Source: an uncultured Gammaproteobacteria bacterium
Lineage (GTDB): Bacteria > Patescibacteriota > Microgenomatia > UBA10105 > UBA927
DNA length: 64,000 bases
Assembly (NCBI GenBank): GCA_964609895.1
Contig: CAZSTG010000001.1
Coordinates: forward strand, 59,202 to 123,201
Direction of reading: 5' to 3'
This document shows, piece after piece, positions 12,890 through 31,719 of this stretch (position 1 is its first letter; every line of letters starts with the position of its first letter). The position numbers and the translations under genes were made by a program. The notes beneath the pieces were generated by a model. It had not been told where the DNA came from, made no database searches, and saw only the letters and a program-made list of their open reading frames with translations.

Positions 12890-12890
12890 A

Positions 12891-13820: not shown

Positions 13821-14073
13821 ACTGGTATTATCGCGTTTTTTTTGATGTGTTACAATAGTAACAGCTTATGAAGAAACGTTCGCTCCCACGACGAAAAGCT
13901 TCAAGAAACGATAGATCGTTTACTCCCTTTATTGATCATAGGATTTTTCCGGATATTATTTCGTTCCATTATGTAAAAGGTCCGTTGCGGCTGTTTCTGC
14001 AGATAGAAATTGTTCTTGCCCTGTTGGTTGTGATTGGTTCCTGTGCCGTGCTTATCCTCAATGCAGTATCTGG

Positions 14074-15939: not shown

Positions 15940-15940
15940 A

Positions 15941-16600
15941 ATGACTCCTCCGTTTTTGATCGGAAACTGGAAAAGCAACATGACGGTAGTCGCAATGCAG
16001 GAATGGTTTTCATTGTATCGTCCAGCTCCCCATATCACCACTGTGCTGTGTGTTCCGTTTACATTGTTGTCATCCGCAGCCGCAGTAATTCAGGAAAAAC
16101 AATTGGGGATTTTTTTGGGTGCTCAGGATGTGTCTCCATTTGGGAACGGACCATATACAGGGGAAATCAGCGCAGATATGATTCGGGAATTTGCCACGTA
16201 TGTGCTGGTGGGACATTCCGAACGAAGACAATATTTTAATGAATCCGCGGAAGAACTTGCATTCCAGTCATTGCAGGCAAAAACAGCCGGACTTACTGTT
16301 ATATACTGCACAAGTGATGCGTCGGAAGTGTTGCCAAAGTCGATTGATCTAGTAGCATATGAACCGGTGGAAGCTATCGGAACTGGAATGCCGGAAGATC
16401 TAGATACAATCCGGTCAGTGTGTTCCAATTTCAGGAAACTGTCAGGAAAACCCGTTATGTATGGGGGAAGCGTTACGGATGAAACGCTCACAAGTATTGT
16501 AAAAACCAATGCTGTCGACGGTCTGTTGGTGGGTGGCGCAAGTCTGGATCCCGAAAAGTTTTCGGCGATTGGGGAACTATACACCAATATGCTTATATGA
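15941..16600 (+). CDS. tpiA: Triosephosphate isomerase
   Basis: MTPPFLIGNWKSNMT...YVLVGHSERRQYF...AYEPVEAIGTG...GGSV. Start ATG 15941, head-to-head and 2-20 bp from the pcrA start. Confidence 0.88.
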   Translation: MTPPFLIGNWKSNMTVVAMQEWFSLYRPAPHITTVLCVPFTLLSSAAAVIQEKQLGIFLGAQDVSPFGNGPYTGEISADMIREFATYVLVGHSERRQYFNESAEELAFQSLQAKTAGLTVIYCTSDASEVLPKSIDLVAYEPVEAIGTGMPEDLDTIRSVCSNFRKLSGKPVMYGGSVTDETLTSIVKTNAVDGLLVGGASLDPEKFSAIGELYTNMLI

Positions 16601-17613
16601 GACGCAGATCATTTTCCATTGCAAGTGCCGTTGTTTTTTTGTCGCTGGTCATAGTGCTAGTGTTTGGTGTTGTAAAACTGGTGAAATTGAATACAGACTT
16701 TTCCAAAAATACGGGATTGAGTTTGGTAACGATAGGAAAACTTCTTTTAGACGGGGGCGCACCACTGAAAACAACGGACGACAGGGTGAATATTCTCTTG
16801 CTTGGTATGGCGGGAGGTATCCATGATGGTCCCGATTTGACCGATACTATTCTCATCGTGTCCTTCGAAACAAAAAAAAGGAGCATATCACTGTTATCAC
16901 TTCCTCGTGACATCTGGTCTGACGCATTGAAAGACAAGATAAACAGCGCATACCATTACGGCGAAGTAAAAAAAACAGGAGGCGGCATTGTACTTGCACG
17001 CGCGATCATGGAAGACGTGACAGGTCTGCCCATGCATTATGTGGTGACACTGGATTTTACACAGTTTGAAAATCTTATTGATGTCGTCGGTGGGATTGAT
17101 GTAAACGTCGCCAGTGCCTTTACCGATACGGAATTTCCGATTGCAGGGAAGGAAAATGACGAATGCGACGGCGATCCGAATTATGCATGCCGGTATGAAA
17201 CAATTCAGTTTGCATCAGGAATACAGCATATGGACGGGGCAACGGCACTTAAATATGTACGAAGCAGACATGCGGAAGGGGATGAGGGAACGGATTTTGC
17301 CAGAGGAAGAAGACAGCAGGATGTTATTTTGGCGCTCAAGGAAAAAATCATGAATTTGCGGCCATGGTTTCACCCATCTGTTGCCAAAAAATTGCTTGCT
17401 GCCGCTGATACGGCGACAGATACGGATATGACCATTGGAGAACAATTAACGATAGGTAAAAAGGCATTACAGGTATCCGGATCGATGCAGAAGATTTCCA
17501 TTGAACATCTGTTGACTGTTCCGCCGGCATGGTTGTACGGCAGATATGTCCTTGTTCCAGAGACAGATTACGATACGGTGCATGCATATATACGGCAGGA
17601 ACTTCTCAAATAA
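16597..17613 (+). CDS. LytR-CpsA-Psr (LCP) family cell-envelope phosphotransferase
   Basis: N-terminal TM helix, then ...NILLLGMAGGIHDGPDLTDTILIVSF...SLLSLPRDIW...VVTLDFTQFENLIDVVGGIDV. ATGA overlap with the tpiA stop. Confidence 0.85.
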   Translation: MRRRSFSIASAVVFLSLVIVLVFGVVKLVKLNTDFSKNTGLSLVTIGKLLLDGGAPLKTTDDRVNILLLGMAGGIHDGPDLTDTILIVSFETKKRSISLLSLPRDIWSDALKDKINSAYHYGEVKKTGGGIVLARAIMEDVTGLPMHYVVTLDFTQFENLIDVVGGIDVNVASAFTDTEFPIAGKENDECDGDPNYACRYETIQFASGIQHMDGATALKYVRSRHAEGDEGTDFARGRRQQDVILALKEKIMNLRPWFHPSVAKKLLAAADTATDTDMTIGEQLTIGKKALQVSGSMQKISIEHLLTVPPAWLYGRYVLVPETDYDTVHAYIRQELLK

Positions 17614-17664
17614 ACCTCATACACATGGTGAATTCTTGGGGCACCATTCGGAAGGCCACAGGTA

Positions 17665-19263
17665 TTAGAGGATAAGTCCGAGAATGAGCAAGAGAATGCT
17701 TCCTGCAACACTGATTGCCCCGATGATTCCAGGACCCTCTCCTGCTACAGGAATTTTTGGAGTTGGTTGACCAGTTGGTGTCGGTGTTGCTGGAGTGTCG
17801 GCAATGAGCCGTACTCTGGTTGGAGTCGGAGTTTGATGTTGTTCTGCGGGTGTTGCAGTGGGATCTGTATATGCCGTAGTCGGCGTAGCCTGAACAACAG
17901 GAGGTGTTGTCGGTGTCGGAGTTGGTTCGTCTGTCGGTGTCGGAGTGACGGCACTTTCGTCCGTGTATCCGATAAATACGTTAAAGTCCTCAAAATCCCA
18001 GTTTGCATCCAATTGTCCGCGCTGATCGGTGTCTTGTCCCTGAATTGCGTCTGCCCAACACTGATACGGTCTGTCTACACCAGAAGTGGTTTTAATGCCG
18101 GAGTCGGACAGGGAAGAAATATACGAACTGATGTCCCGTGTCGGTCCCGGATACCTACCGCATTTATTAGCACTGGTCGGGAGAATAAATCCGACGGAAT
18201 TCGTATCTTCGTTTCCGAGTCGTACGGCAATGGTATATGTTCCTGCGGTCACTGTTGTTTCAAAATTGCCGTCGCTGATTTTTGTCATAGAAGCAGCGGA
18301 TCCGCCTTTGGTCATCGATACAGTGGTGTCAGCATGCACGTTTACCATATGTATGCGAATTTTGCCGTCGGAATCAAAGGTTACGGTATTCAACTTGCTT
18401 CTGTCCGGATCGCATACAATGCTGTTTTCGCTCGGTGCCGCTTCTTCAGGATAATGATAACAATTTCCCGGCGGTGTTTCGCAGTTGTATGGTGCTTTGG
18501 AACAGTCTGTTCCTTTTGGATAACATCCCATGCAACAGCAGACTGAGTCGTTTCTGTTACAGCATAAGTTGCCGCAGTCGAGCGGACAGAAACTGCTGGT
18601 TACCGTTCCCTTGCTTGCACATGCTCCTGTTGTATACAGTACTCTGCCGATGATACAAGAGCCTGTTCCACCTCCACCACCACCGATAGGCGTTGGAGTG
18701 ATGGAAGGATAGACAGCCCTGCTTCTAATTTCCGCAAATTGCGGAGACTGTGTTATGTAATAAATGGCAATGGGAAGAGTAAAAACCAGAAATAACAGGG
18801 TCGCTATCAGAATGCCTTTTTCTGACTTTTTCTTTTTCTGCTGAGGCGGTTTTTTTTCTTGCGTGTCCTGTGTTTCTGTTTCCCCAGAAGGAACAATGAC
18901 AGATTCTGTTGCCGCTTTCACCATAGGTTCCGGAATCGGAGGCGGTGGAGGATCTGGAGATACAGGTGCTATCGGTTGCTGACTGACAGTATCAGGAACA
19001 GGAATTTCTACCGGCGGTTTCTCGGGAATTTCCGGAGGAGGTGCGATAGGAGAAGGTGCTATCGGTTCAGGAAGTATGGGAATTGCCTCGGGCGACTCTA
19101 AAGATGGTGTTTCCGGTTTCACCTGCGTATCAGAAGTGTTTTGAATTGTACCGGCAGCAGATTCTTCAGGTGATGCGTTTTCATCAACTGGAAGCGGTGT
19201 TTCACCTAACGCTTTTGCAGCATCATCTATGACTTGCTGTGGAGATACCGGTTCATCCGCCAT
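17665..19263 (-). CDS. Cell-surface protein: N-terminal TM + 'EIRSRA' motif, Cys-rich module, Pro/Thr-rich linkers, C-terminal IPVAG-hydrophobic sorting signal
   Basis: ...ILIATLLFLVFTLPIAIYYITQSPQFAEIRSRAV...CPLDCGNLCCNRNDSVCCCMGCYPKGTDCSKAPYNCETPPGNCYHY...TPTPTDEPTPTPTTPP...KIPVAGEGPGIIGAISVAGSILLLILGLIL*. Start at ATG 19263 (MADEPV) or 19278. Confidence 0.7.
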   Translation of the reverse strand: MADEPVSPQQVIDDAAKALGETPLPVDENASPEESAAGTIQNTSDTQVKPETPSLESPEAIPILPEPIAPSPIAPPPEIPEKPPVEIPVPDTVSQQPIAPVSPDPPPPPIPEPMVKAATESVIVPSGETETQDTQEKKPPQQKKKKSEKGILIATLLFLVFTLPIAIYYITQSPQFAEIRSRAVYPSITPTPIGGGGGGTGSCIIGRVLYTTGACASKGTVTSSFCPLDCGNLCCNRNDSVCCCMGCYPKGTDCSKAPYNCETPPGNCYHYPEEAAPSENSIVCDPDRSKLNTVTFDSDGKIRIHMVNVHADTTVSMTKGGSAASMTKISDGNFETTVTAGTYTIAVRLGNEDTNSVGFILPTSANKCGRYPGPTRDISSYISSLSDSGIKTTSGVDRPYQCWADAIQGQDTDQRGQLDANWDFEDFNVFIGYTDESAVTPTPTDEPTPTPTTPPVVQATPTTAYTDPTATPAEQHQTPTPTRVRLIADTPATPTPTGQPTPKIPVAGEGPGIIGAISVAGSILLLILGLIL

Positions 19264-19342
19264 GAAAAATACCAGCAAAAAATCAGTACTATATATTAGA
19301 GTAAACTATCTAAGATGAAACTTCAACAAACAAGATCTGTGT

Positions 19343-20278
19343 TTATAATGTTAATCCGATAAGCAGTAGTAGGACGCTGCCTAGTGCAGTGACGGATCCG
19401 AGTAATCCCGGACCTATGCCTGACACCGGCATTGCCTGACCGGCTGTATCCTCAACAGTTTCCTGCGTTGCTGTTTCACTGGTGGTTTCCGGACAGGAGC
19501 ATGTTGATTCCGCCGGACAACTTGCATTTCTGCATCTGTTTATTCCATTTACGGAAGAACAGGTAAGTCCCGATGTACAGTCATTGTCATTTGCACAGGA
19601 AGCGTCGCAGGCGGCAGAATTTGGTTCATTCGTTGGTGCAGGTGTCGGTGCTTCAGTTGGTTCAGGAGTATCGGTCGGATTTGCGTCAGTTGTTTCTGCC
19701 TTCGCTCCGACTCCTTCACCGGACGCACAGCCTGCTTTTGCGCAGGACTGATCAAAACAAAGGTTGCCGCAGTCGCCGGTATATACACCGCAACTTCCTC
19801 CACACGTTTCTGCATTGCATGGTTTTAGTCCAGAAAGCGGCGGCTTTTGTATGTATTTGCATCCACCAGCAACACCATCTTCCTTTACGCGTACATTTGG
19901 TAATTCTCCTGTTACAATATCTTTTGTCGCAACTTCAACAGGACATTGCGCGGGGGCGGATGTGCCGCAACTCCAAACATATCCGCTTTCTGTATCCACA
20001 CATTTACACATATATCCTGTATTTTTCCCCGTTGTTTTGCTGATTTGGCACGCCTGCGTCCCTTTGGTACAAGATTCTGAAGCGGCGCGGCTTCTGGTAT
20101 CTGCAAGTTGCTGCTGCTTGGCAATATAGTAGACTGCTACGGGAAGTGTAACAATCAGAAGAATAATTCCTATTAATAACGGGGTTTTTCCGCCCCCAGT
20201 TTTTTTTCCTGCAGGCTTATCCTTTGCCGGTTCCGGCGGTTGCATCGGGGGAATGATAAAAGTGTCTGTGGTTGGCAT
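19343..20278 (-). CDS. Cell-surface Cys-rich protein, paralogue of 17665..19263 (N-terminal TM + 'DTRSRAA', C-terminal MPVSG-hydrophobic sorting signal)
   Basis: ...LLIGIILLIVTLPVAVYYIAKQQQLADTRSRAAS...multiple Cys-rich blocks (CGGSCGVYTGDCGNLCFDQSCAKAGC...CDASCANDNDCTSGLTCS...)...QAMPVSGIGPGLLGSVTALGSVLLLLIGLTL*. Confidence 0.7.
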   Translation of the reverse strand: MPTTDTFIIPPMQPPEPAKDKPAGKKTGGGKTPLLIGIILLIVTLPVAVYYIAKQQQLADTRSRAASESCTKGTQACQISKTTGKNTGYMCKCVDTESGYVWSCGTSAPAQCPVEVATKDIVTGELPNVRVKEDGVAGGCKYIQKPPLSGLKPCNAETCGGSCGVYTGDCGNLCFDQSCAKAGCASGEGVGAKAETTDANPTDTPEPTEAPTPAPTNEPNSAACDASCANDNDCTSGLTCSSVNGINRCRNASCPAESTCSCPETTSETATQETVEDTAGQAMPVSGIGPGLLGSVTALGSVLLLLIGLTL

Positions 20279-20312
20279 ACATTGTGCACTGTTAGTGTTG
20301 CATGTGGCAGTT

Positions 20313-21641
20313 TTACGTACGTTCTTTGACGAACAACAACGAACCGCCGCCGATAATCAATGCCGATCCGAGTAAAAGAAGCAGTAATGTCGGAATATAT
20401 GATCCGCTTGTCGGCATCGGTTCGGACGCAAGATCTGCTTCCTCTGTGGCCACCTCTTCAGGCGTCGGTGTCGGCGTTTCCAGTTCTGCTGATGCAGTTG
20501 CATCTCCCAAAACTTGTGTGCCGCTTTTCATCACAATAAATGTATGTGTAATGACAATGGGTTTGTTTTTTGCATCTACACTGCTGATGGTGACACGTTG
20601 TTTTCCCGGAGAGAGTGATTTTGTCGATGTATATTTCCATAATCCGTCCTTATCAACAGTTGTCGTTCCCGTTGTCGGATTGGTGAGTCCGAGAGAAACG
20701 GTTACTTTTTTTCCTGCCACACCAGTTCCCCTGATCTGCGGCCGGTATGTGGACACGGTAGCCCCCTCCATTGGTGCGGTAAGGGAAACAGCGCCCGTTG
20801 TTGCGCCCAATACCGCCGTTTGTGTGTTGGTTGACTTCAACGCGGCAGGTGTTGTGCTTGTGTTTGCAGCAGAAGCAAGGGAGGAAGATACAGGTTTTTT
20901 TGCATCGCGGTTTCGGAAATCATAGGTCTGTCCGAGAATAATATCGGGTACAGGAGCATCATTGAATGTGTCTGTCAGCACGTTTGATTCCGTTGTTCCT
21001 TTTTGGATAACCAGTGTTTCCGTATACCGGTCGCTGCTTGGCACATAGGAACTTCCGTCAGGTGTCCGTATTGTGGAAAGGGGAATGATCCATGAGCCGG
21101 AATTTCTGACGAGTGTGGAAAGCGTCTGACTGCCGGTAAGAGTAAGAAAAACAAGCGCGCCTTCCGCCGGTGTTGTTTCATCCAGCGTTACCTTTCCGTA
21201 TGCAGGATCGATATTCGGTGGCATGTCGGTAAGTGATGCAAAAGTGGAAACCTGATAGCTTTTTTTATCCGTCGGATATTTTTTCCCGTTGGAGAGAATC
21301 GTAACGTCAAACAACGTCGCAGGAGGCAGCGATCGTATAGACACGCTGTGGGTATTATATTTACCTAATTTTCCGGTTGCGTCCCGCTCGTCGAATCCAG
21401 AATATTTTTTTCCATTGGTATCAACAGCCAATATGGTTCCGCTTGCCGTTTCCTCTGTCTGCCAGACGATAGTAAAACTTGTATCAGTAATGTTGGTTAC
21501 CGTTACCTGCTGCGGTTCTATGGAAGCGCCGGCACGCGTCTGTGTTTTGGAAAATAACTGAAACAGAAAGCTGATTCCTGTCATCAATAGCACGACAAGA
21601 ATGATGCCGACAATCGTAGGTATTTTTCTTGGCCCTTGCAT
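20313..21641 (-). CDS. Cell-surface protein with Fn3/Ig-like beta domains. N-terminal TM + 'TQTRAGAS', C-terminal PMPTSG-TM-KERT sorting signal.
   Basis: MQGPRKIPTIVGIILVVLLMTGISFLFQLFSKTQTRAGAS...VTVTNITDTSFTIVWQTEE (Fn3-like)...EPMPTSGSYIPTLLLLLLGSALIIGGGSLLFVKERT*. Confidence 0.7.
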   Translation of the reverse strand: MQGPRKIPTIVGIILVVLLMTGISFLFQLFSKTQTRAGASIEPQQVTVTNITDTSFTIVWQTEETASGTILAVDTNGKKYSGFDERDATGKLGKYNTHSVSIRSLPPATLFDVTILSNGKKYPTDKKSYQVSTFASLTDMPPNIDPAYGKVTLDETTPAEGALVFLTLTGSQTLSTLVRNSGSWIIPLSTIRTPDGSSYVPSSDRYTETLVIQKGTTESNVLTDTFNDAPVPDIILGQTYDFRNRDAKKPVSSSLASAANTSTTPAALKSTNTQTAVLGATTGAVSLTAPMEGATVSTYRPQIRGTGVAGKKVTVSLGLTNPTTGTTTVDKDGLWKYTSTKSLSPGKQRVTISSVDAKNKPIVITHTFIVMKSGTQVLGDATASAELETPTPTPEEVATEEADLASEPMPTSGSYIPTLLLLLLGSALIIGGGSLLFVKERT

Positions 21642-21650
21642 AATAAATCA

Positions 21651-21845
21651 TTAGAACTTGGTTTTTTGTTCTAATATATCCAGTGTATCAGTATCGAGCT
21701 TCGGTGTTAAGGGTGTGATCACCTGATTGACGGTGGAAGACACCGTTGACGTTTTGGTGGTTTTTACCAGTTCAAAAAATATCCATGACAAGACGGTGAC
21801 AAACGTGAATATTGAGATAAGGAATAAGTCGCGGTCTGATTTCAT
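21651..21845 (-). CDS. Small single-pass membrane protein downstream of pilO (possible pilus-assembly accessory)
   Basis: 64 aa: MKSDRDLFLISIFTFVTVLSWIFFELV... Tightly packed 7 bp after pilO. No recognisable family. Confidence 0.35.
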   Translation of the reverse strand: MKSDRDLFLISIFTFVTVLSWIFFELVKTTKTSTVSSTVNQVITPLTPKLDTDTLDILEQKTKF

Positions 21846-21851
21846 AGCGTG

Positions 21852-22502
21852 TTAGGGTGTTGCATAATACGCATTCATTTTTAATACCAGCTGAATGGAC
21901 GGCGAAGCGGAGATGGTTGTCGCCTGTTTTTTGTTCGGCGTGAATGAGATGGATTCAATGGTTATAATTCTGCGCATGGCAATGCAATTGCGTAAAAATG
22001 AGGAAAGCGCATCGTAATTGCCTTCAATAGACATGGAGACGGCAAAATCAATCTGTTTGACTGTATAGGATTTGGATGCACTTGCACTGGCAGACGGCAG
22101 CATGGGGGCGGAGGCAACCTGAATGGCGGAAATGGATGCGCCGGCGCTCGTTGCAATGTCGCGCAGTTGTCTTACGACATCTATGGCATTTGGATCGGTT
22201 GGCGTTGCGTCTTGGATGTAGGATGCGCGTTGTCCTATGGATTCAAGCAGCGCCTGCGCCTCTATCAGCGCTTCTATTTTTTCATCCATTTTTTTGTTCA
22301 CCGATTTTTTATCGACAATTTCTCGCCTTAGGTAGAGAATGGTCTGCACTGTCGGTTTGACTGCATACCACCCGAACAATGCAACAACCAAGAAAATAAA
22401 TATAACGGTTGAATACACCCGTGTTTTCGGTTTTGCCAAAATCGGTTCAAGCGAATGATAGTATTTTCTGTATTGTTCCGGTAGGTTGAATTTGCTTGCC
22501 AT
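21852..22502 (-). CDS. pilO: Type IV pilus assembly protein PilO-like
   Basis: N-terminal cytoplasmic segment, one TM helix (VIFIFLVVALFGWYAV), coiled coil, then a periplasmic domain. Position directly after pilN. Confidence 0.6.
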   Translation of the reverse strand: MASKFNLPEQYRKYYHSLEPILAKPKTRVYSTVIFIFLVVALFGWYAVKPTVQTILYLRREIVDKKSVNKKMDEKIEALIEAQALLESIGQRASYIQDATPTDPNAIDVVRQLRDIATSAGASISAIQVASAPMLPSASASASKSYTVKQIDFAVSMSIEGNYDALSSFLRNCIAMRRIITIESISFTPNKKQATTISASPSIQLVLKMNAYYATP

Positions 22503-22509
22503 AATCGTA

Positions 22510-23076
22510 TTATTTTTTCCCTGCGGCGGTGTTGACGCCCACCAGTTCGGCTTCCAAAGTATATTGGATGCCTATACTCGTTGCTTTGTCGATAGTGCCG
22601 ATTTCAATATTTTTGAGTGATTTGGTTGCATTGAGATTTAACAGGAGTTGTGAAAAACTCTGCACTGTAAGGGAAGTGATCTGCGCGGTAACTTTTCCGT
22701 TATTTATTGACAGCGTTTGGAAATAGGTACCGGACGGAAGAAGCGTGTGCAGTGTCTGGATTGTGTCCGTCGGTTTACTTTGGCGGTCGAGTAGCACTTT
22801 GATTTTGTTTAACGAATCCTGTGTCCTTTTGAATGTTATTTCCAAACCCTGATTATAGGCAATGATGTCCTGTTTTTGTGAAATTTCATCTTTCAGGTCT
22901 GTGAGTTGCCGGTCAAGGCTGAACCGAGAAATAAAAGCGATAAGCACAATCATTTCCGTCGTAATCATGATATATCTTCCATACGTGGTGATCCACGTGA
23001 TCATTCGTCCGACGGGGGAGAGTTCTTGTTTTGATGAACCCAGAAGATTTATCTCAACTGTTGATGTGGCAGGCAT
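22510..23076 (-). CDS. pilN: Type IV pilus assembly protein PilN-like
   Basis: MPATSTVEINLL (the conserved PilN 'INLL' N-terminus)... one TM helix (IMITTEMIVLIAFI), then coiled coil (LTDLKDEISQKQ). Confidence 0.65.
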   Translation of the reverse strand: MPATSTVEINLLGSSKQELSPVGRMITWITTYGRYIMITTEMIVLIAFISRFSLDRQLTDLKDEISQKQDIIAYNQGLEITFKRTQDSLNKIKVLLDRQSKPTDTIQTLHTLLPSGTYFQTLSINNGKVTAQITSLTVQSFSQLLLNLNATKSLKNIEIGTIDKATSIGIQYTLEAELVGVNTAAGKK

Positions 23077-23125
23077 GCATTCATTATAAGGGGAAAAACA
23101 AGAATCCTCAATGATGGGAGTTGCT

Positions 23126-23365
23126 TTACTTGGCTTGAACGAGTTTGGAAAGACGTGACTTGAGTCGTGCTGCTTTATTTTTGTGGATAACGTGCATTTT
23201 TACCGCTTTATCAAGCGTCGCGAATACAGCAGAAAGCTGTTTGGCGTTTGGTGTTTTTCGCATGTCTTTCACGACACTGCGGACATACGCCCGTTTCGTT
23301 GCGGTTGCAACAGAGCGTTTTTTGTCGTGACGCAGTTTCTTTAATGCTTGTGCGGTTATTGGCAT
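23126..23365 (-). CDS. rpsT: 30S ribosomal protein S20
   Basis: MPITAQALKKLRHDKKRSVATATKRAYVRSVVK...KNKAARLKSRLSKLVQAK. Typical S20. Confidence 0.9.
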   Translation of the reverse strand: MPITAQALKKLRHDKKRSVATATKRAYVRSVVKDMRKTPNAKQLSAVFATLDKAVKMHVIHKNKAARLKSRLSKLVQAK

Positions 23366-23432
23366 AGGGGAAAGTATAGCAGAGAGGTATCTATCCGGTC
23401 AAGGTTGGAGTGCGTTATAATAGACAACAGAA

Positions 23433-25088
23433 ATGAAATCCTTGCTGGAATTACTTACCAAAAAACAGTCTTCCGTCCGGTCGGCAGCTATCGTGTTAAT
23501 GGCAATGGTGTTTGTTTCCCGCATATTGGGATTGGTCAGAGACCGGCTGTTGGCGGCACGGTTTTCTCCGGATGAACTGGGTGTATATCTGGCGGCATTC
23601 CGTATGCCGAACTTTTTGTTTGAACTGTTGGTTATGGGTGCACTCACATCCGCGTTTATTCCTGTCTATACGAAATATGTGGCAAAAGGAAAACAGGATG
23701 AGGCGTGGAGGATTTCCAACACCCTCATTACTGTATCAGTTGCAATTCTTCTTGTTATTTCTATTCCGCTTCTTATCTGGACGAGTCAGATTTCAGCACT
23801 CATTGCTCCGGGATTTTCCCCTGCGGAAATCGACCGCATGGTGCAGTTTACGCGGTTTATGGTGGTATTGCAGGTATTTCCGCTGTTAATCGGCAATTTT
23901 TTTACCGGCATTCTGCAGTCACACAAGATGTTTTTTCTTCCGGCGCTCGCCCCTGTGGTGTATAACATGGGAATTATTCTGGGAATTCTGCTGTTCAGCG
24001 GAAGCATCGGGTTGTGGGGACCGGTGGTGGGTGTCGGTATTGGTGCGTTTTTGTTTATGAGCATTCAGATACCGCCGCTAATGAAACTGGGATTCAGGCA
24101 AAAGCCGTCGATGGATCTTCGGAATGAGGGTGTACGTGAAGTGGGAAAACTGATGCTGCCCCGTACGGCAGGTCTTGCTGTTTCGCAGATTGACACCACT
24201 GTTGACCTGATATTGTCTTCACTACTCGGTACACGCATGGTAACGGTATTCAGTTTTGCGCAGCAACTCCAACAGTTGCCCATCGGCCTGTTTGGAGCAA
24301 CGGTTGCGCAGGCGGCGTTTCCTTTGTTGTCTCAGGCGTCTGCAAGCGACGATAAGGAGCAATACATGAAAACGATTACCTCTGCGCTCAACCAGATCAT
24401 GTTTTTCATCATGCCGATCTCCGTATTATTCATCGTACTCCGCATTCCCATTGTCCGGTTGGTGTTTGGCGCATCGCGGTTTGACTGGCAGGCAACAGTA
24501 TTGACGGGCATGACCTTGTCGGCGTTTAGCGTGTCCCTGTCCGCGCAGGCGATATCACAGTTGCTGACCCGCGGATTCTATGCGCTTTTTGACACCATGA
24601 CACCGATGATCATCGCCGTCATCACCATTGTCATGAACACGGTGTTAAGTATAGTGTTTGTCCAGATAGTGCACCTGCCGGTTTGGTCGCTTGGACTTTC
24701 CACAACGATTGCCAGTTTTGTCAATGTGTTTCTGCTTTTTGTTTATCTGGAGCGGCGGCTGGGAAGTCGGATTTTGGTGAAATTGCTTACAACACCAGCA
24801 AAAATTATTATTGCCTCTTTGGTAACCGGCGTTGCACTGTACGTCCCGCTGAAATTATTCGACCAGCTGATTTTTGATACCACCAGAACATTCGGCCTCT
24901 TGCTCCTTGCCGGCGTAAGCAGTGTGATCGGTCTTGCTGTGTATTTGTTTTTAGTGTGGATGTTCGGCGTAACGGAAGCAAAATCGTTCATTGCACTGCT
25001 GACTAAATTCAGACATCCAAAGCAGATTATTTTGGAGCCGGCAAACGAAGTGGTAGGGAACGGCAGCCAGAATACGCCGATGACATAA
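23433..25088 (+). CDS. murJ: Lipid II flippase MurJ (MviN)
   Basis: ...VFVSRILGLVRDRLLAARFSPDELGVYLAAFRMPNFLFELLVMGALTSAFIPVY... canonical MurJ N-terminus. 14 predicted TM segments. Confidence 0.9.
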   Translation: MKSLLELLTKKQSSVRSAAIVLMAMVFVSRILGLVRDRLLAARFSPDELGVYLAAFRMPNFLFELLVMGALTSAFIPVYTKYVAKGKQDEAWRISNTLITVSVAILLVISIPLLIWTSQISALIAPGFSPAEIDRMVQFTRFMVVLQVFPLLIGNFFTGILQSHKMFFLPALAPVVYNMGIILGILLFSGSIGLWGPVVGVGIGAFLFMSIQIPPLMKLGFRQKPSMDLRNEGVREVGKLMLPRTAGLAVSQIDTTVDLILSSLLGTRMVTVFSFAQQLQQLPIGLFGATVAQAAFPLLSQASASDDKEQYMKTITSALNQIMFFIMPISVLFIVLRIPIVRLVFGASRFDWQATVLTGMTLSAFSVSLSAQAISQLLTRGFYALFDTMTPMIIAVITIVMNTVLSIVFVQIVHLPVWSLGLSTTIASFVNVFLLFVYLERRLGSRILVKLLTTPAKIIIASLVTGVALYVPLKLFDQLIFDTTRTFGLLLLAGVSSVIGLAVYLFLVWMFGVTEAKSFIALLTKFRHPKQIILEPANEVVGNGSQNTPMT

Positions 25089-25097
25089 AAAAACGCA

Positions 25098-26504
25098 TCA
25101 CTTCATCCGTTGCACTTCCAGCTGTATGACACTTTGGGGAGTTGCCACAACCGTTTTTTTCAGCACGCCGTTCGTAACCGTTTCCTGACTTTGTGTTGTT
25201 TTTCCGGAGAGTATTGTTTCCTTATATGTATATGTACCGTTGGGGAGATGCATAAATGTGACAGGAACCTGTTCCGTATGTGTTCCCTTGGCGTCAAAGT
25301 TTACCAGCAGCACTTTGATGATGTTGTTTTTGACTGATGCAAATCCGGTAACCCATGATCCTTCACCCGAAAGTTGCAGCCGTGTTCCTTTCATCGCATC
25401 AAAAAATGAATAGACATAATAGCGCGGTTTGATCTTTTTTCCGTTTGTCGGATGTGTAATCAGCCCCCAGCCGCTTCCGTTTTCCTGATTCGGTCCATCC
25501 ACAAGTTCAAAGGAAAACAGATACGTCGGTCCGCCGGAAATAAGTTCCCGAAGTACTGATGCGGTATGAGCAGTCCCGAATGAGGTACCGTATGCCGTGC
25601 TTTTTGCGCCGGTAAAACCGAATTCCGTAATGATGGTCGGTTTGGTGGTGTATGCGGGATATGCCATGAGCCAACCACTCAAATTATGCTGGTCTGTGGT
25701 GAACTGCTTGGGATTGGCTAAGTAGGAATGCCACGAAAAAAAGTCCAACCGGCTGCCGGTGTTGATCACTCCAAGAATCCAGTTTTTGTAGAGACCTGTT
25801 GTTGCCGGTCCGCCGAACATAAACGGATTGACGTTGTTTGCCTGATTTGCTCCGGTTGCCGCATACCGGTATAACGTCAGATAGTTTTTTTCTCCGCTCA
25901 GTTTCCATGAGCCGAACTGGTCAAGATCTGGTTCGTTCCATACTTCGTAGTACATGCCACTGATGTTTTTCCCCGATTTTCCGCTGTAATGCTCTATTGT
26001 TTTCTGCACAACTGTCGCCCAATCGTTCCAGTCGTTCGGCGGATTGATGACAACGCCGTCTTTTGCAATAGCTTGTGGCATAAAAGAAAGAGACAGAAAC
26101 GGTTTTGCTCCTGTTGCCAGAATGGTATTGACGGCAGTATCAAGCTTTGAAAAATCAAAGGAAAGTGTGCTGCCGTTTTTTGACACAACGTCATAATGAT
26201 CAAAAATATGATCCAGTCTGATAACTTTTGGTGACAGTGCCTTTGTTTCCTGCAGGACAGGGGCGATCATATCGCCTGCCTCTTCACCGCCCTGTGCAAA
26301 AGCGTGGAAAAAGTCAGTGTTGATTTCCTCCAGTTTTGTCTGCGTGTCTATGACAATGGTTGCTTTTGTGCCGGATGCTTTGGAAACCAGCTGTGTTGTT
26401 TTGTATACCACGGCGATCAGAAGTGGAATAAATACAAGGAGGGCAAGGATGGAAGTAAATGTGGTGAATTTGGATGGTGCGGTTTTTTCCAGAAATGATG
26501 TCAT
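25098..26504 (-). CDS. Secreted/anchored clan GH-A glycoside hydrolase (GH39/GH5-like)
   Basis: N-terminal TM helix. ...YYEVWNEPDL (catalytic acid/base 'NEP' of clan GH-A)...ITEFGFTG (nucleophile Glu context). Confidence 0.65.
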   Translation of the reverse strand: MTSFLEKTAPSKFTTFTSILALLVFIPLLIAVVYKTTQLVSKASGTKATIVIDTQTKLEEINTDFFHAFAQGGEEAGDMIAPVLQETKALSPKVIRLDHIFDHYDVVSKNGSTLSFDFSKLDTAVNTILATGAKPFLSLSFMPQAIAKDGVVINPPNDWNDWATVVQKTIEHYSGKSGKNISGMYYEVWNEPDLDQFGSWKLSGEKNYLTLYRYAATGANQANNVNPFMFGGPATTGLYKNWILGVINTGSRLDFFSWHSYLANPKQFTTDQHNLSGWLMAYPAYTTKPTIITEFGFTGAKSTAYGTSFGTAHTASVLRELISGGPTYLFSFELVDGPNQENGSGWGLITHPTNGKKIKPRYYVYSFFDAMKGTRLQLSGEGSWVTGFASVKNNIIKVLLVNFDAKGTHTEQVPVTFMHLPNGTYTYKETILSGKTTQSQETVTNGVLKKTVVATPQSVIQLEVQRMK

Positions 26505-27298
26505 ACAGTCTGTTTTGCTTTTGCGTATACAACACCGCTCACTGCAATGCAGCAGATACCTGCAATAAGCAGTGCGACGGTTGTTTCTGTTGATCCCGTT
26601 ACGGGCACTTCGTCACTGCCGCCTCCCATGCCGTCGGTGGTAATGAGCGCGCTGTCTGTTGCCTCTGTTTCGGGTGTCACTGTCGGTTCTGCAGGAGTCT
26701 CCGTGGGTGTGACAGCGGAAAGGAGTGCTGCCTGCGTGGGTGTCGGCATGACGGTAGTTGTGGTGGTGGTTGTTGATGTCCCGAGAATATTTACGGAAGC
26801 GGTTCCCATGGTGGTAATCACATTGGTTGATTCCGCCAGTCCTGATGCAAATGTGGTGGTGTCAAATTTCAACTGGACGGGCGCGGTTGTTCCTGTTTTT
26901 CCCTTAAAGCGGATGACGGCAATAGTGCCGGTACCTGTTATGGGGGAAGTGGTGCTGTTAGCAGCTACGGTAATAGATGCGGTGCCCGCCCCTACGATTC
27001 CGGAAGCGGTGATTTTTGGTGCCAATGCGCCATTCGTGATGCTTGTGGCTTCGAGTTTCGTGGAATCGAAGGTAACAACGACTTTGACCGCGGTAACATT
27101 GTTTGTGCCTGTGTTGATGTCGACGTTGACGGCAAATTGTTCATCCACTGGCTTAGTGATGGTTGTCGGATTAAAAGAAAGAGCGGTTGCTGGCGCGGCG
27201 CGGCTGCGGATATCCTGCTGCCTTCCCACCAAGTAGACTGATGCAGGGACCGCGACCAAAAGAAGTATACCAACAATAAGTAAGACGATTTTTTTCAT
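26501..27298 (-). CDS. Thr-rich cell-surface protein. N-terminal TM + 'DIRSRAAP', C-terminal VPVTG-TM-KAKQTV sorting signal.
   Basis: MKKIVLLIVGILLLVAVPASVYLVGRQQDIRSRAAP...TSTTTTTTTVMPTPTQ...EVPVTGSTETTVALLIAGICCIAVSGVVYAKAKQTV*. Start at ATG 27296-27298. Confidence 0.7.
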   Translation of the reverse strand: MKKIVLLIVGILLLVAVPASVYLVGRQQDIRSRAAPATALSFNPTTITKPVDEQFAVNVDINTGTNNVTAVKVVVTFDSTKLEATSITNGALAPKITASGIVGAGTASITVAANSTTSPITGTGTIAVIRFKGKTGTTAPVQLKFDTTTFASGLAESTNVITTMGTASVNILGTSTTTTTTTVMPTPTQAALLSAVTPTETPAEPTVTPETEATDSALITTDGMGGGSDEVPVTGSTETTVALLIAGICCIAVSGVVYAKAKQTV

Positions 27299-27344
27299 CC
27301 TATATTTAGTATGCCGTAAACAGACAAGGGAAGACAATAGGGTA

Positions 27345-27381
27345 TTGACAGATATTAGCACTCGTTATATATTACTGCTAA
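27345..27381 (+). promoter_or_regulatory. Sigma70-like promoter (TTGACA-17-TATATT) overlapping a CIRCE-like HrcA operator (TTAGCACTC-N9-TACTGCTAA)
   Basis: ttgaca 27345-27350; TTAGCACTC 27355-27363; N9 gttatatat; tactgctaa 27373-27381 (7/9 to GAGTGCTAA). Lies ~85 nt upstream of hrcA. Confidence 0.75.
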
Positions 27382-27463
27382 TTGTCTCTTTTTCGGAATC
27401 ACGGATGTATACAAAAAGAGGAAGAAATTGAGGCAAGAATGAACACATAAGAGGACAACTCAT

Positions 27464-28198
27464 ATGGAAACATCATTTGATCTTACGCCGCGGCAGGTTC
27501 TTATTTTAAAGGCTATTATTGAAGAGTACATTCAAACTGCTGAGTCGGTCGGATCGGAAACTTTGGATAAAAAATACAATCTCGGAGTCTCGCCCGCAAC
27601 AATCCGGAATGAAATGGTGCGGTTGACCGAGATGAAACTCTTAAAACAGCCGCACACATCGGCAGGTCGCAGTCCGACGCCGGCGGCACTCAAGTTTTAT
27701 GTAGAACATCTGATGAAAGCCAAGGACATGTCTGTGGCAGAGGAAATTTCCGTGAAGGAAAAGATCTGGGACTACCGGCAGGAAGTGGACAAACTGCTTA
27801 GGGAAGCGACACGGACGCTGGCGTCCTATACAAAGACGTTGGCAATTGCCGCGACGAAAGACGGGGACATGTATATGTCCGGCGCGGCCAATATTTTGGA
27901 TATGCCGGAATTTTATGATTATGATTTGACGCATGCACTGTTTTCCGCGCTTGATCAGGTGGATTTTTGGTGGGAACTGGTGGAACGACAACCTGAGACC
28001 GTCGATATTCTCTTGGGAGATGAATTCGGTGGCAGAGGGGCGCTTGGGGAATGCGGATTTGTCTTTAACAAATTTGAAACACCGCATGTGTCGGGAATGA
28101 TCGGCGTCGTGGGGCCGTCTCGGCTGAACTATCCGCGACTTGTTCCTGTTGTCCGGTATATGGGTGGACTGATCAAAGAATTATCAACTAACTGGTAA
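27464..28198 (+). CDS. hrcA: Heat-inducible transcription repressor HrcA (short, 244 aa)
   Basis: METSFDLTPRQVLILKAIIEEYIQTAESVGSETL...VSPATIRNEMVRLTEMKLL. HrcA winged-HTH N-terminus. First gene of the hrcA-grpE-dnaK-dnaJ order. Confidence 0.88.
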   Translation: METSFDLTPRQVLILKAIIEEYIQTAESVGSETLDKKYNLGVSPATIRNEMVRLTEMKLLKQPHTSAGRSPTPAALKFYVEHLMKAKDMSVAEEISVKEKIWDYRQEVDKLLREATRTLASYTKTLAIAATKDGDMYMSGAANILDMPEFYDYDLTHALFSALDQVDFWWELVERQPETVDILLGDEFGGRGALGECGFVFNKFETPHVSGMIGVVGPSRLNYPRLVPVVRYMGGLIKELSTNW

Positions 28199-28202
28199 AC
28201 AT

Positions 28203-28709
28203 ATGAAAAATACACAGACTTCGCCCAAGGCAAATCAGCCGTTGGCTGAAAAACAAGAAAACAAAAATTTGGAACTGCAAAAAGCAGTGGAAGAAGCTGA
28301 AGTTTGGAAAAACAAATATATTCGCGCACTTGCGGATTATCAGAATTTGGAAAAGCGGACGGAGGAAGAAAAACAGGAAGTTAGAGTGTATGCGACAAAA
28401 CTATTTTTGGAAAAACTGCTTCCTGTCATTGATACCTTGGAGATGGCAGATGTTCATATTAACGATGAGGGCCTCAGTATCGCGATGAAAGAACTGCATG
28501 CGCTGCTTGCCAAATTCGGTGTAGAAAAAGTGCAAGTATTAGGAGAAACATTTGATCCATACAAAATGGAATGCATTGAGCTTGTCGAAGGAGAAAAAAA
28601 CAAAGTTGTCGAAGTGACGAGTTCCGGATACGTCATGCACGGCAAACTTCTTCGGGAGGCAAAAGTAAAAGTGGGTGGAGGAACAACCACCAAGGAAGAA
28701 AAAGTATAA
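28203..28709 (+). CDS. grpE: Nucleotide exchange factor GrpE
   Basis: ...YIRALADYQNLEKRTEEEK...ETFDPYKMECIE...SGYVMHGKLLREAKVKV. Confidence 0.9.
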   Translation: MKNTQTSPKANQPLAEKQENKNLELQKAVEEAEVWKNKYIRALADYQNLEKRTEEEKQEVRVYATKLFLEKLLPVIDTLEMADVHINDEGLSIAMKELHALLAKFGVEKVQVLGETFDPYKMECIELVEGEKNKVVEVTSSGYVMHGKLLREAKVKVGGGTTTKEEKV

Positions 28710-28739
28710 AAAGTTTTTACGTTTATAAGGAGGCGTAAT

Positions 28740-30638: not shown

Positions 30639-30665
30639 AAAAAGAAAAAAATAGTATTTTGGAAG

Positions 30666-30700
30666 CATCCCGCGAATTTGTTCATGCGGGATGTTTCCGG
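30666..30700 (+). terminator. Hairpin (8-bp perfect stem catcccgc/gcgggatg, 12-nt loop) followed by a T-rich tract, between dnaK and dnaJ. Candidate partial intrinsic terminator.
   Basis: catcccgc (30666-30673) ... gcgggatg (30686-30693) then tttccggttt. Confidence 0.5.
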
Positions 30701-30720
30701 TTTATATATAATGTATCGTT

Positions 30721-31620: not shown

Positions 31621-31650
31621 TTGACGATATTTTCGCTTCTGTGCTATACT
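31621..31650 (+). promoter_or_regulatory. Candidate sigma70-like promoter TTGACG-18-TATACT upstream of nusA
   Basis: ttgacg 31621-31626; tatact 31645-31650. Confidence 0.4.
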
Positions 31651-31673
31651 ACCTGATAGTTGAAGTGTTTGTG

Positions 31674-31700
31674 AGGTGGGCCTGAAACCCGCCTTTTTTT
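31674..31700 (+). terminator. Hairpin with a G·U wobble (GGUGGG/CCCGCC) plus a T7 run. Terminator of dnaJ or an attenuator in the nusA leader.
   Basis: aggtgggcctgaaacccgcc followed by ttttttt (31694-31700). Confidence 0.5.
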
Positions 31701-31719
31701 ATAAATAAGGAATAAACAT

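What the first reader, a model, noticed from the sequence alone, without database searches (positions are those of the whole stretch)
17665..27361. Cluster of paralogous surface proteins sharing a conserved N-terminal 'TM-Q-x(2-3)-[DE][IT]RSRA[A]' motif
Five exported proteins (11173.., 17665.., 19343.., 20313.., 26501..) begin with a single hydrophobic helix followed within ~10 residues by EIRSRAA / EIRSRAV / DTRSRAA / DIRSRAA / TQTRAGA. Conservation of RSRA across otherwise divergent proteins exceeds what a generic AXA signal-peptidase site needs. The proteins are Cys-rich, Pro/Thr-rich or Fn3-like. This looks like a lineage-specific signal/processing or sorting motif, possibly a second cleavage or anchoring determinant.
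Basis: seen in the sequence. Interest (0 to 1): 0.7.

Follow-up and report, generated by a model that had tools for sequence, protein, structure and literature searches.

The report
Stereotyped export signal of Microgenomates surface proteins
Several unrelated surface proteins of this tiny uncultivated (Microgenomates/CPR) bacterium start with almost the same 35-residue export signal ending in Q-Q-[D/E]-I-R-S-R-A, a module found in hundreds of protein clusters of related organisms and kept more constant than ordinary export signals, so it probably marks a special subclass of secreted proteins.

Summary
The motif is real. [DE][IT]RSRA occurs four times in about 19,700 residues of window proteins, against 0.0025 expected. 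Each copy lies 6-13 residues after a membrane helix (genes 11173+, 17665-, 19343-, 26501-). The fifth example (20313-, TQTRAGA) is only a degenerate relative.

The proteins are not recent paralogues. Similarity is confined to the N-terminal helix plus motif and to C-terminal Pro/Thr linkers with sortase-like signals, and the RSRA codons differ between genes.

A 37-position profile of the N-termini finds 644 cluster representatives (E<=1e-3) among 1.84 billion proteins. These carry at least 18 unrelated mature parts, including cohesin, GH5-dockerin, Big_13, SurA-like and Cys-rich families.

Conservation stops abruptly at A(-1)/A(+1). AlphaFold places the helix-to-coil break at that same point.

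In orthologues from the same loci, the motif c-region is more conserved (67%) than its own mature domain (46%). Ordinary signal peptides in those loci show the opposite pattern (16-33% against 49-67%). Conventional AXA signals occur alongside it.

The most likely reading is a lineage-specific, unusually constrained subclass of Sec signal peptide, cleaved after R-x-[RK]-A. I found no published description or curated model. I class it as a new variant of a known kind, of moderate interest.

The parts
11173..12006 (+). Exported 277-aa protein of unknown fold with a strict motif-type signal peptide. The motif EIRSRA lies at 11296..11313 and the predicted cleavage is after A47. It has no C-terminal anchor.
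   Evidence: No Pfam or NCBIfam family. Orphan in the word-index search. Single-sequence AlphaFold model unusable, pLDDT 38.7.
17665..19278 (-). Cys- and Pro/Thr-rich surface protein. The database start is probably M6 at 19263. Its parts are a conserved cytoplasmic N-terminal extension (about 19263..18802), a KKKK stretch plus TM helix, the motif EIRSRA at 18715..18732, and a C-terminal signal KIPVAGEGPG plus helix with no basic tail at 17668..17757.
19343..20278 (-). Cys-rich (7.1% Cys) surface protein, a short relative of 17665. The motif DTRSRA lies at 20084..20101. The C-terminal signal AMPVSGIGPG plus helix, with no basic tail, lies at 19346..19435.
26501..27361 (-). Cohesin-domain surface protein. 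The true start is MKK at about 27298 (265 aa). The motif DIRSRA lies at 27197..27214. A sortase-type signal, VPVTG plus helix plus KAKQTV tail, lies at 26504..26608.
   Evidence: Pfam Cohesin E=4e-9. 52 homologues all carry QQ[DE][ILV]R[SKN][RK]AAPAT. The AlphaFold model has a helix at 2-33, coil at 34-37 and the first strand at 38.
20313..21641 (-). Fn3/Big_13 surface protein with a degenerate signal. TQTRAGA lies at 21525..21545 and keeps R-x-x-A only. A sortase-type signal, PMPTSG plus helix plus KERT tail, lies at 20316..20420.
   Evidence: Its orthologues have ordinary A/S-x-A/S sites, with c-region identity 0.16.
25098..26504 (-). GH39 glycoside hydrolase with a related but simpler signal peptide. 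TQLVSKASG lies at 26370..26396 and the likely cleavage is SKA|S. It shares P(-17), [ST](-3), [RK](-2) and A(-1) but lacks E(-6) and R(-4). Its start codon overlaps the cohesin gene's stop codon (ATGA).
   Evidence: Pfam Glyco_hydro_39 E=2.5e-23. Orthologue alignment. Overlap.

Best explanation
The motif is the C-terminal (c-region) end of a stereotyped Sec-type signal peptide. This signal peptide is characteristic of Microgenomates (CPR/Patescibacteria) and is used as an interchangeable N-terminal module on many unrelated surface and secreted proteins.

The module has four parts:
- a basic n-region (MKK or KKKK);
- an h-region with a fixed Pro at -17 (A-I-P-x-T-V-Y-L-V);
- a long, polar, helix-prone c-region, Q-Q-Q-[ED]-[IL]-R-[SQK]-[RK]-A;
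- a likely cleavage by a type I signal peptidase between A(-1) and A/S(+1).

The released ectodomain is then either free, dockerin-bearing, or held at the wall or membrane by a C-terminal [LIMV]Px[TSA]G-plus-helix (sortase-type) signal.

The extra invariant positions (P-17, Q-7, E/D-6, R-4) are under purifying selection beyond what the generic Sec and signal peptidase I machinery needs. The signal therefore defines a subclass of the secretome.

Shown: the existence, significance, breadth, module boundary, extra constraint and coexistence with ordinary signal peptides.

Inferred: Sec dependence, the exact cleavage site, the enzyme, and the reason for the extra constraint.
For: - Chance is excluded.
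- Selection acts at the amino-acid level. The R-S-R-A codons differ among the four genes (Ser TCA vs AGC; Arg CGG, AGA, AGG, CGC). The proteins are otherwise unrelated (Pfam).
- Breadth. The 37-position profile gives 644 hits at E<=1e-3 and 20 at <=1e-10 among 1.84e9 representatives. The mature parts fall into at least 18 unlinked clusters. These include GH5+LamG+dockerin, SurA_N, Big_13, cohesin, cohesin+dockerin and Cys-rich families.
- Orthologues in genomes with 62-93% MurJ identity keep the motif.
- Module boundary. In 26 non-cohesin proteins conservation is high to A(-1) and A/S(+1) and vanishes from +2.
- AlphaFold predicts one helix through R(-2), coil at A-A-P-A, and the first cohesin strand 4 residues later.
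- In the strict forms -1 is Ala and -3 is most often Ser, as signal peptidase I requires.
- Extra constraint. c-region identity among cohesin orthologues is 0.67, against 0.46 for their mature domain. For GH39 the figures are 0.33 against 0.67, and for Fn3 0.16 against 0.49, in the same loci.
- Subclass. Conventional AXA signals sit in the same loci: YkuD ALA|Q, M23 peptidase SFA|E, IYA|Q and a cyclophilin SQA|N.
- About 88% of full-length hits end in a C-terminal helix preceded by a sortase-like or related motif. [quoted passage not shown]
Against: - No cleavage has been observed, and SignalP or DeepTMHMM could not be run.
- Position -3 is Q, K, N or E in about 35% of sequences. Classical signal peptidase I tolerates these poorly (established -3/-1 rule).
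- The c-region is 10-13 residues long, predicted helical, has no Pro or Gly, and carries two conserved basic residues. All four features are atypical for signal peptidase I substrates.
- In the Cys-rich family the helix plus motif sits 93-185 residues from the N-terminus, behind a conserved cytoplasmic peptide. That does not fit a classical signal peptide.
- In the cohesin family an alternative A-P-A|T site 3 residues downstream cannot be excluded.
- The statistics are dominated by one family (163 of 189 sequences are cohesin proteins), and the profile was itself cohesin-biased.
- Organism labels were seen for only four proteins or records: two 'Microgenomates group' and two 'Patescibacteria group'. 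The taxonomic range is therefore poorly defined.
Confidence: 0.6

Rival explanations
1. The module is a dedicated sorting or processing signal. It would be read by a specialised partner: a second signal-peptidase paralogue, another membrane protease, or a spatial targeting system. This would be analogous to the YSIRK/GXXS, KxYKxGKxW or SipW-cognate signal peptides. It would route a subset of surface proteins to a particular site or pathway, for example a host-contact zone, the septum or a wall-attachment machine.
For: - Positions that signal peptidase I does not read are the most conserved: P-17, Q-7, E/D-6 and R-4 at 94-98%. The -3 position is relaxed.
- The c-region is more conserved than the mature domain only in this class.
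- Ordinary AXA signal peptides coexist in the same loci.
- Most carriers are wall- or membrane-anchored adhesin-like proteins.
- There is precedent in YSIRK/GXXS signal peptides, which direct sortase substrates to septal secretion and are themselves cleaved at the motif (PMC5962339).
Against: - No candidate partner gene is linked. A regex found no signal peptidase I or sortase gene in 293 kb of window and related loci.
- Carriers are functionally mixed: enzymes, a chaperone-like protein and adhesins. About half of the non-cohesin carriers lack any C-terminal anchor.
- GH39 and Fn3 signals form a continuum with the strict motif. That fits one enzyme with graded substrates.
Confidence: 0.25
2. 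The segment is not cleaved. It would be a signal-anchor with a conserved extracellular juxtamembrane stalk, a helix extension bearing the E/R/R residues. The proteins would stay tethered by the N-terminal helix. In the Cys-rich family this would physically couple a conserved cytoplasmic peptide to the ectodomain.
For: - AlphaFold predicts the motif as an uninterrupted extension of the TM helix, with no helix breaker.
- Two basic residues and Q/K at -3 are unfavourable for signal peptidase I.
- The Cys-rich family has a conserved N-terminal cytoplasmic peptide, M-[AD]-[DI]-x-x-[ST]-x-Q-Q-x-I-[DN]-[DN]-A-A-K, with a Pro-rich linker ahead of the helix. This makes most sense if it stays attached.
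Against: - Conservation ends exactly at A|A in unrelated families, the pattern expected at a processing site.
- -1 is always Ala and -3 is mostly Ser.
- Most carriers have a second, C-terminal anchoring signal, which would be redundant.
- Dockerin-bearing and enzyme carriers (P0087, P0068, P0173) are expected to be released.
Confidence: 0.12
3. The resemblance is only a product of recent gene duplication, gene conversion or cassette spread within one genome, or of chance, and has no functional meaning.
For: 17665 and 19343 are related to each other. L001 carries an extra paralogue of this family.
Against: - Chance is excluded.
- Codons differ between the genes.
- The mature parts are unrelated.
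- The motif is kept in genomes as distant as 62% MurJ identity and in 644 clusters defined at 50% identity.
- The c-region evolves more slowly than the mature domain.
Confidence: 0.02

Closest known systems
Generic Sec signal peptide cleaved by type I signal peptidase (the von Heijne n/h/c architecture with the -3/-1 'AXA' rule)
   Same: It has a basic n-region, a hydrophobic h-region, Ala at -1 and usually Ser at -3. Conservation ends at the predicted cleavage site. The carriers are extracytoplasmic proteins.
   Different: - The whole 35-residue peptide is stereotyped across unrelated proteins (profile E down to 1e-13).
- The c-region is 10-13 residues, helix-prone and has two conserved basic residues and one acidic residue.
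- -3 is Q, K, N or E in about a third of cases.
- P(-17), Q(-7), E/D(-6) and R(-4) are nearly invariant.
- In one family the peptide lies 93-185 residues from the N-terminus.
YSIRK/GXXS signal peptides of staphylococcal and streptococcal surface proteins (TIGR01168, PF04650)
   Same: It is a conserved sequence motif inside a subclass of Sec signal peptides. It coexists with ordinary signal peptides in the same organism and is enriched on sortase-type wall-anchored proteins.
   Different: - YSIRK/GXXS lies at the n-region/h-region junction, not after the h-region.
- There is no sequence similarity.
- The present motif also occurs on proteins without C-terminal anchors.
- A targeting function is demonstrated for YSIRK (PMC5962339) but is unknown here.
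Other curated special-purpose signal peptides: KxYKxGKxW (TIGR03715, accessory-Sec glycoproteins), SipW-cognate signal peptides (TIGR04088) and the autotransporter extended signal peptide region (ESPR)
   Same: These are family-independent N-terminal modules with conserved residues. They imply a dedicated partner or kinetic control of export. Long n-regions occur in KxYKxGKxW and ESPR, as they do in the Cys-rich family here.
   Different: No NCBIfam or Pfam model of these types matches the window proteins or ten representative hits. The conserved residues, their position relative to the helix and the host lineage all differ.
LPXTG-type sortase sorting signals (C-terminal)
   Same: Four of the six window proteins end in [IMV]P[VT][AST]G followed by a hydrophobic helix. 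Two of them also have a basic tail.
   Different: This concerns the other end of the proteins. 17665 and 19343, and many profile hits, carry a variant signal, PxxG-x-GPG or PGP[GS] followed by a Gly-rich helix that ends at the C-terminus with no basic tail. That variant may be read by a different enzyme.

Membership tests
Sec signal peptide cleaved by signal peptidase I | Positively charged n-region followed by a 15-25 residue hydrophobic h-region | tested here: met
   MKK, KKHS or KKKKSEKG precede hydrophobic stretches of 19-28 residues in all six window proteins.
Sec signal peptide cleaved by signal peptidase I | Small residue (A/G/S) at -1 | tested here: met
   Ala in all 189 aligned sequences. 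The alignment was anchored on R-x-x-A, so this result is partly built in. Independent of that anchor, +1 is A, S or T in most sequences.
Sec signal peptide cleaved by signal peptidase I | Small or neutral residue (A/V/S/T/G/L/I) at -3 | tested here: inconclusive
   S in 58%, T in 3%, G in 1%. Q is 17%, K 14% and N/E 4%. In the non-cohesin set, S occurs in 17 of 27 and Q/K/E/N in 10 of 27.
Sec signal peptide cleaved by signal peptidase I | Short (about 3-7 residue) extended c-region, often with a helix breaker and without net positive charge | tested here: not met
   There are 10-13 residues between the last hydrophobic residue and A(-1), with no Pro or Gly from -9 to -1. R(-4) and R/K(-2) are conserved. 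The region is predicted helical up to -2.
Sec signal peptide cleaved by signal peptidase I | Located at the extreme N-terminus | tested here: inconclusive
   True for 142 of the 150 top profile hits. In 8 of 150, including window protein 17665, the match starts at residue 72-148, behind a conserved cytoplasmic extension or, in P0170, an extra N-terminal helix.
Sec signal peptide cleaved by signal peptidase I | Experimentally observed cleavage, or a signal-peptide predictor call | not testable with these tools
   No SignalP or DeepTMHMM and no proteomics were available.
YSIRK/GXXS signal peptide | YSIRK...GXXS consensus at the n-region/h-region junction | tested here: not met
   There is no such sequence. 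The conserved motif lies after the h-region. No NCBIfam or Pfam hit.
YSIRK/GXXS signal peptide | Restricted to sortase-anchored proteins | tested here: inconclusive
   88% of full-length hits have a C-terminal helix, but these are mostly cohesin proteins. About half of the non-cohesin carriers lack one.
Tat, lipoprotein or type IV prepilin signal peptides | Twin-Arg before the h-region; lipobox Cys at +1; G|F-T-L-I-E before the h-region | tested here: not met
   Direct reading of the six N-termini. The Arg residues lie after the helix, there is no Cys near the site, and there is no prepilin consensus.
Sortase substrate (LPXTG-type C-terminal sorting signal) | LPXTG-like pentapeptide followed by a hydrophobic segment | tested here: met
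   IPVAG (17665), MPVSG (19343), MPTSG (20313) and VPVTG (26501), each followed by a helix of 19-24 residues. 115 of 182 full-length hits have [LIMVAF]Px[TSA]G plus a helix.
Sortase substrate (LPXTG-type C-terminal sorting signal) | Positively charged tail after the hydrophobic segment | tested here: inconclusive
   Present in 20313 (KERT) and 26501 (KAKQTV). Absent in 17665 and 19343, which end ...LILGLIL and ...LIGLTL.
Sortase substrate (LPXTG-type C-terminal sorting signal) | A sortase encoded in the genome | not tested
   A regex found none in the 64-kb window or the related loci. The literature reports a sortase family as near ubiquitous in Microgenomates (PMC6744442).

The most novel reading that the evidence does not exclude
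The 35-residue module may be a true sorting signal of CPR bacteria, read by a dedicated and still unidentified partner such as a specialised signal-peptidase paralogue, an intramembrane protease or a localisation factor. It would select which surface proteins (cohesin/dockerin assemblies, Cys-rich adhesins) are delivered to a particular envelope site, perhaps the host-contact zone. In the Cys-rich family, the conserved cytoplasmic N-terminal peptide attached to the same helix would make export or cleavage controllable from inside the cell.
Probability: 0.25. Interest if true: 0.7.

Novelty: new variant of a known kind. Interest (0 to 1): 0.5.

Why it matters
CPR/Patescibacteria are thought to live attached to other cells, so their surface proteins are central to their biology. 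Most of those proteins are unannotated.

A highly recognisable export module would be useful in three ways:
- It would give a cheap sequence tag for picking out a defined part of the Microgenomates surface proteome, including cohesin/dockerin proteins and Cys-rich putative adhesins.
- It points to unusual substrate recognition by the lineage's signal peptidase or by an unknown partner.
- It provides a ready-made signal peptide for heterologous secretion tests.

It is also an example of N-terminal module sharing between unrelated genes. If it turns out to be only a lineage-typical cleavage region, its value is mainly for annotation: a new HMM of the kind that already exists for YSIRK or PEP-CTERM.

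Tried and rejected
1. A word-indexed search with the six aligned N-termini (A1) found nothing, because the query was too short for the word index.
2. Literal-string literature searches (IRSRA and similar) returned only unrelated words. Five further searches on CPR, Microgenomates, signal peptide, signal peptidase, sortase, cohesin and LPXTG found no description of the motif.
3. Pfam and NCBIfam have no model covering the N-terminal module or the C-terminal variant signal.
4. I looked for a linked dedicated peptidase. A regex for the signal peptidase I boxes and the sortase TLxTC motif found nothing in 293 kb. This is a crude test.
5. Two look-ups meant to extend the window failed, probably because my ORF starts differ from the called genes.
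A narrower one gave only 9 loci.
7. Cluster look-ups returned almost no organism names, so the taxonomic range stays vague.
8. The 11173 protein has no detectable homologues in the word-index search. Its single-sequence AlphaFold model is unusable at pLDDT 38.7, so no fold search was run.
9. I considered and rejected Tat, lipoprotein, prepilin, rhomboid-type (wrong helix orientation) and furin-like R-x-[KR]-R readings. I also rejected mRNA-level conservation, because the codons differ.
10. No dockerin partner for the cohesin protein was found in the window or the loci.

Full report
**Setting.** The window is a gene-dense stretch of a Microgenomates (CPR/Patescibacteria) genome.
- The MurJ gene (23433..25088) has a 93%-identical counterpart on a 1.02-Mb contig labelled 'Microgenomates group bacterium' (L001). 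It has 62-63% counterparts on two other MAG contigs.
- Gene order is conserved across these contigs and further metagenome contigs: HrcA, cohesin protein, GH39, MurJ, S20, PilN, PilO, a 64-aa membrane protein, Fn3/Big_13 protein, one to three Cys-rich proteins, LCP, TIM.

**1. The observation.** All five quoted strings are present, in frame, just after a hydrophobic helix.
- The strict pattern [DE][IT]RSRA occurs four times in real ORFs. Composition predicts 0.0025 occurrences in 19,687 residues (Poisson P about 2e-12), and 2 of 2000 shuffles gave any hit.
- The codons encoding R-S-R-A differ among the four genes: Ser is TCA or AGC, and Arg is CGG, AGA, AGG or CGC. The conservation is therefore at the protein level.
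- Pairwise BLASTP shows similarity only at the N-terminal helix plus motif and in the C-terminal Pro/Thr linker plus anchor. Only 17665 and 19343 are related beyond that.
- Pfam assigns different domains: cohesin (26501), GH39 (25098), Fn3/Pur_ac_phosph_N/Big_13 below the gathering scores (20313), and none for 11173, 17665 or 19343.
- 'Paralogous' in the title is therefore wrong.
They keep R-x-x-A or [ST]-[RK]-A, but their orthologues drift into ordinary A/S-x-A/S sites.
- Protein 17665 does not begin with the helix. The helix starts near residue 155, after an extension that is conserved in the orthologues.

**2. What it is.** The conserved unit is larger than the motif.
- Aligned on the invariant Ala, 189 sequences give this consensus: L(-21), A(-19), I(-18), P(-17) 95%, T(-15), V(-14), Y/F(-13), V(-11), Q(-9), Q(-8), Q(-7) 94%, E/D(-6) 96%, I/L/T/V(-5), R(-4) 98%, S(-3) 58% (Q 17%, K 14%), R/K(-2) 92%, A(-1), A(+1) 80%.
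- A 37-position profile of eleven N-termini was searched against 1.84 billion cluster representatives. It gave 644 hits at E<=1e-3 and 20 at E<=1e-10, a very strong result for so short a query.
- The top 150 hits are dominated by cohesin-domain proteins, because the profile was biased towards them. Single-linkage clustering of the mature parts still gives 18 unlinked groups.
- Those groups include a GH5 cellulase with LamG and dockerin, a SurA_N chaperone-like protein, Big_13 proteins, cohesin-plus-dockerin proteins, the Cys-rich family and several unknowns.
- More examples on other families turned up in loci fetched for other reasons: L003_52, L006_10651, L009_9995 and L010_10445.

**3. Where the module ends.**
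- In 26 correctly anchored non-cohesin proteins (the 27th row, P0195, was mis-anchored), conservation runs to A(-1) and A/S(+1) and is gone from +2 onward.
- An AlphaFold model of the cohesin protein was built with 38 homologues (mean pLDDT 83). It predicts a single helix over residues 2-33, that is the TM helix plus QQDIRSR. Coil follows at A34-A-P-A37, and the first cohesin strand begins at residue 38.
- Both results place a processing site at RSRA|A. This site has Ala at -1 and most often Ser at -3, as type I signal peptidase requires.

**4. More than an AXA site.** I compared orthologues taken from the same set of loci.

| Family | c-region identity (-10..-1) | Mature-domain identity |
|---|---|---|
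| Cohesin (motif-type signal) | 0.67 | 0.46 |
| GH39 (simpler signal) | 0.33 | 0.67 |
| Fn3 (degenerate signal) | 0.16 | 0.49 |

- The motif-type c-region therefore evolves more slowly than its own passenger. Ordinary signal peptides in the same genomes evolve faster than theirs.
- The best-kept positions (P-17, Q-7, E/D-6, R-4) are not those that signal peptidase I reads, while -3 is relaxed.
- Clearly conventional signal peptides occur in the same loci: YkuD ALA|Q in L005, M23 peptidase SFA|E in L006, IYA|Q in L009 and a cyclophilin SQA|N in L015.
- The module therefore marks a subclass of the secretome. It is not simply the lineage's general cleavage consensus.

**5. The other end of the proteins.**
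- Four of the six window proteins end in [IMV]P[VT][AST]G plus a hydrophobic helix. 20313 and 26501 also have a basic tail and look like classical sortase substrates. 17665 and 19343 end in ..PV[AS]G-x-GPG..helix with no tail.
- Among 182 full-length sequences in hand (profile hits plus the cohesin homologues), 115 have [LIMVAF]Px[TSA]G plus a helix. Another 24 have a distinct 'PGP[GS]..G.G..G..L[ST]IIGG.L.F.L-COOH' ending. 22 have no C-terminal helix, and some of those carry dockerins.
- A sortase family is reported as near ubiquitous in Microgenomates (PMC6744442).
- The N-terminal module is not strictly coupled to a C-terminal anchor. About half of the non-cohesin carriers lack one.

**6. 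Mechanism.** My best reading (confidence about 0.6) is a Sec signal peptide cleaved after R-x-[RK]-A by a type I signal peptidase. It is used as an interchangeable module on a subclass of surface proteins.

Shown:
- existence and statistical significance;
- breadth across unrelated protein families;
- the module boundary;
- the extra constraint;
- coexistence with ordinary signals.

Inferred:
- Sec dependence;
- the cleavage site and the enzyme;
- why the extra positions are constrained.

Features that fit the classical model poorly:
- Q, K, N or E at -3 in about a third of sequences.
- A c-region of 10-13 residues that is helix-prone and carries two conserved basic residues.
- The Cys-rich family, where the helix plus motif lies 93-185 residues from the N-terminus. 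It sits behind a conserved cytoplasmic peptide (M-[AD]-[DI]-x-x-[ST]-x-Q-Q-x-I-[DN]-[DN]-A-A-K) and a Pro-rich linker.

These features keep two rivals alive:
- A dedicated sorting or processing signal with its own partner, analogous to YSIRK/GXXS (about 0.25).
- An uncleaved signal-anchor with a conserved juxtamembrane stalk (about 0.12).

Duplication or chance is excluded. No peptidase or sortase gene is linked to the cluster, by a crude regex over 293 kb.

**7. Comparison with known systems.**
- The closest kind is the ordinary Sec/SPI signal peptide. The closest analogues in concept are the special signal-peptide classes YSIRK/GXXS, KxYKxGKxW, SipW-cognate and ESPR.
- None of their defining sequences or positions is met. 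No Pfam or NCBIfam model matches the module.
- Six targeted full-text searches found no description of it.
- I therefore class it as a new variant of a known kind. That rests on the libraries available here, and a description in a subscription journal cannot be excluded.

**8. Verdict.**
- The interpretation as a lineage-specific signal motif is supported.
- 'Second cleavage or anchoring determinant' is not supported.
- Interest is moderate (0.5). The module is unusually strongly conserved and easy to test. It would be useful for annotating CPR surface proteomes. Conceptually it stays within known signal-peptide biology unless a dedicated partner is found.

Noticed in passing
window 18802..19263 (-); also L001 2866..4470 and 4551..5852, L004 17672..19231, L005 17772..19184, and P0134, P0161, P0181, P0195: The Cys-rich surface-protein family has a conserved cytoplasmic N-terminal peptide (MADEPVSPQQVIDDAAKAL; in distant members MDILxxAQQQINDAAKQ). 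A Pro-rich linker of 60-130 residues follows, then a [ST]x[IV][IV]P[PS] element about 25 residues before the KKK-plus-helix. The export helix is therefore internal, and the cytoplasmic part is under selection. Its function is unknown.
   Followed up: partly
window 17668..17757 and 19346..19435 (-); P0051, P0076, P0078, P0093, P0103, P0104, P0111, P0113 and others: There is a second type of C-terminal signal: P-x-x-G-x-GPG or PGP[GS][DEN]x[IL], followed by a Gly-rich helix (G.G..G..L[ST]IIGG.L.F.L) that ends at the C-terminus with no basic tail. It is distinct from the LPXTG-plus-tail type and occurs in 24 of 182 full-length motif proteins. No NCBIfam model matches it. Some carriers give weak sub-threshold hits to NF058578, CPR_pilus_PamR.
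   Followed up: partly
window 16597..28198; L001-L005, L007, L008, L010, L012: Gene order is conserved in Microgenomates: HrcA | cohesin protein | GH39 | (YkuD) | MurJ | S20 | PilN | PilO | 64-aa membrane protein | Fn3/Big_13 | Cys-rich proteins | LCP | TIM. The cohesin stop codon and the GH39 start codon overlap (ATGA at 26501..26504), which suggests translational coupling of an anchor protein and an enzyme. No dockerin was found in the window or the loci.
   Followed up: partly
window 21651..21845 (-): A 64-aa single-helix protein (MKSDRDLFLISIFTFVTVLSWIFFELVKTTKTST...) lies directly after PilO. It is conserved at the same position in L004, L005, L007 and L010. It is unannotated and may be a pilus-assembly accessory.
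   Followed up: no
window about 35700..40100: A low-GC island (GC 0.30-0.34, against about 0.45 elsewhere) carries two ORFs with cytosine-5 DNA methyltransferase motifs (DLF[SA]GCGGL, GNAVPP) at 35748..36851 and 36881..38110. A 332-aa ORF follows at 38119..39117. This is probably an acquired restriction-modification system.
   Followed up: no
window 1..64000: There are no tRNA genes and no Rfam family at gathering score anywhere in the 64 kb.
   Followed up: yes
L002 (CAZKLT010000001.1) and L003 (CAYUKU010000001.1): These records are titled 'uncultured Gammaproteobacteria bacterium'. They share the Microgenomates gene order, have 62-63% MurJ identity to the window and carry the motif-type signal peptides. 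The taxonomic labels are probably wrong.
   Followed up: no
GH39 orthologues: window 25098..26504 and L001-L005, L007, L008, L010, L012: Pro at exactly -17 from the predicted cleavage site is invariant in the GH39 signal peptides too, although they lack E(-6) and R(-4). A fixed spacing from Pro to the cleavage site may be a general feature of signal peptides in this lineage.
   Followed up: partly
window 12056..13087 and 12891..13820 (-): Two adjacent ORFs that look FemAB-like by eye (possible peptidoglycan interpeptide-bridge formation; no domain search was run) overlap by about 200 bp as listed. The first start codon of the downstream gene is probably too far upstream.
   Followed up: no
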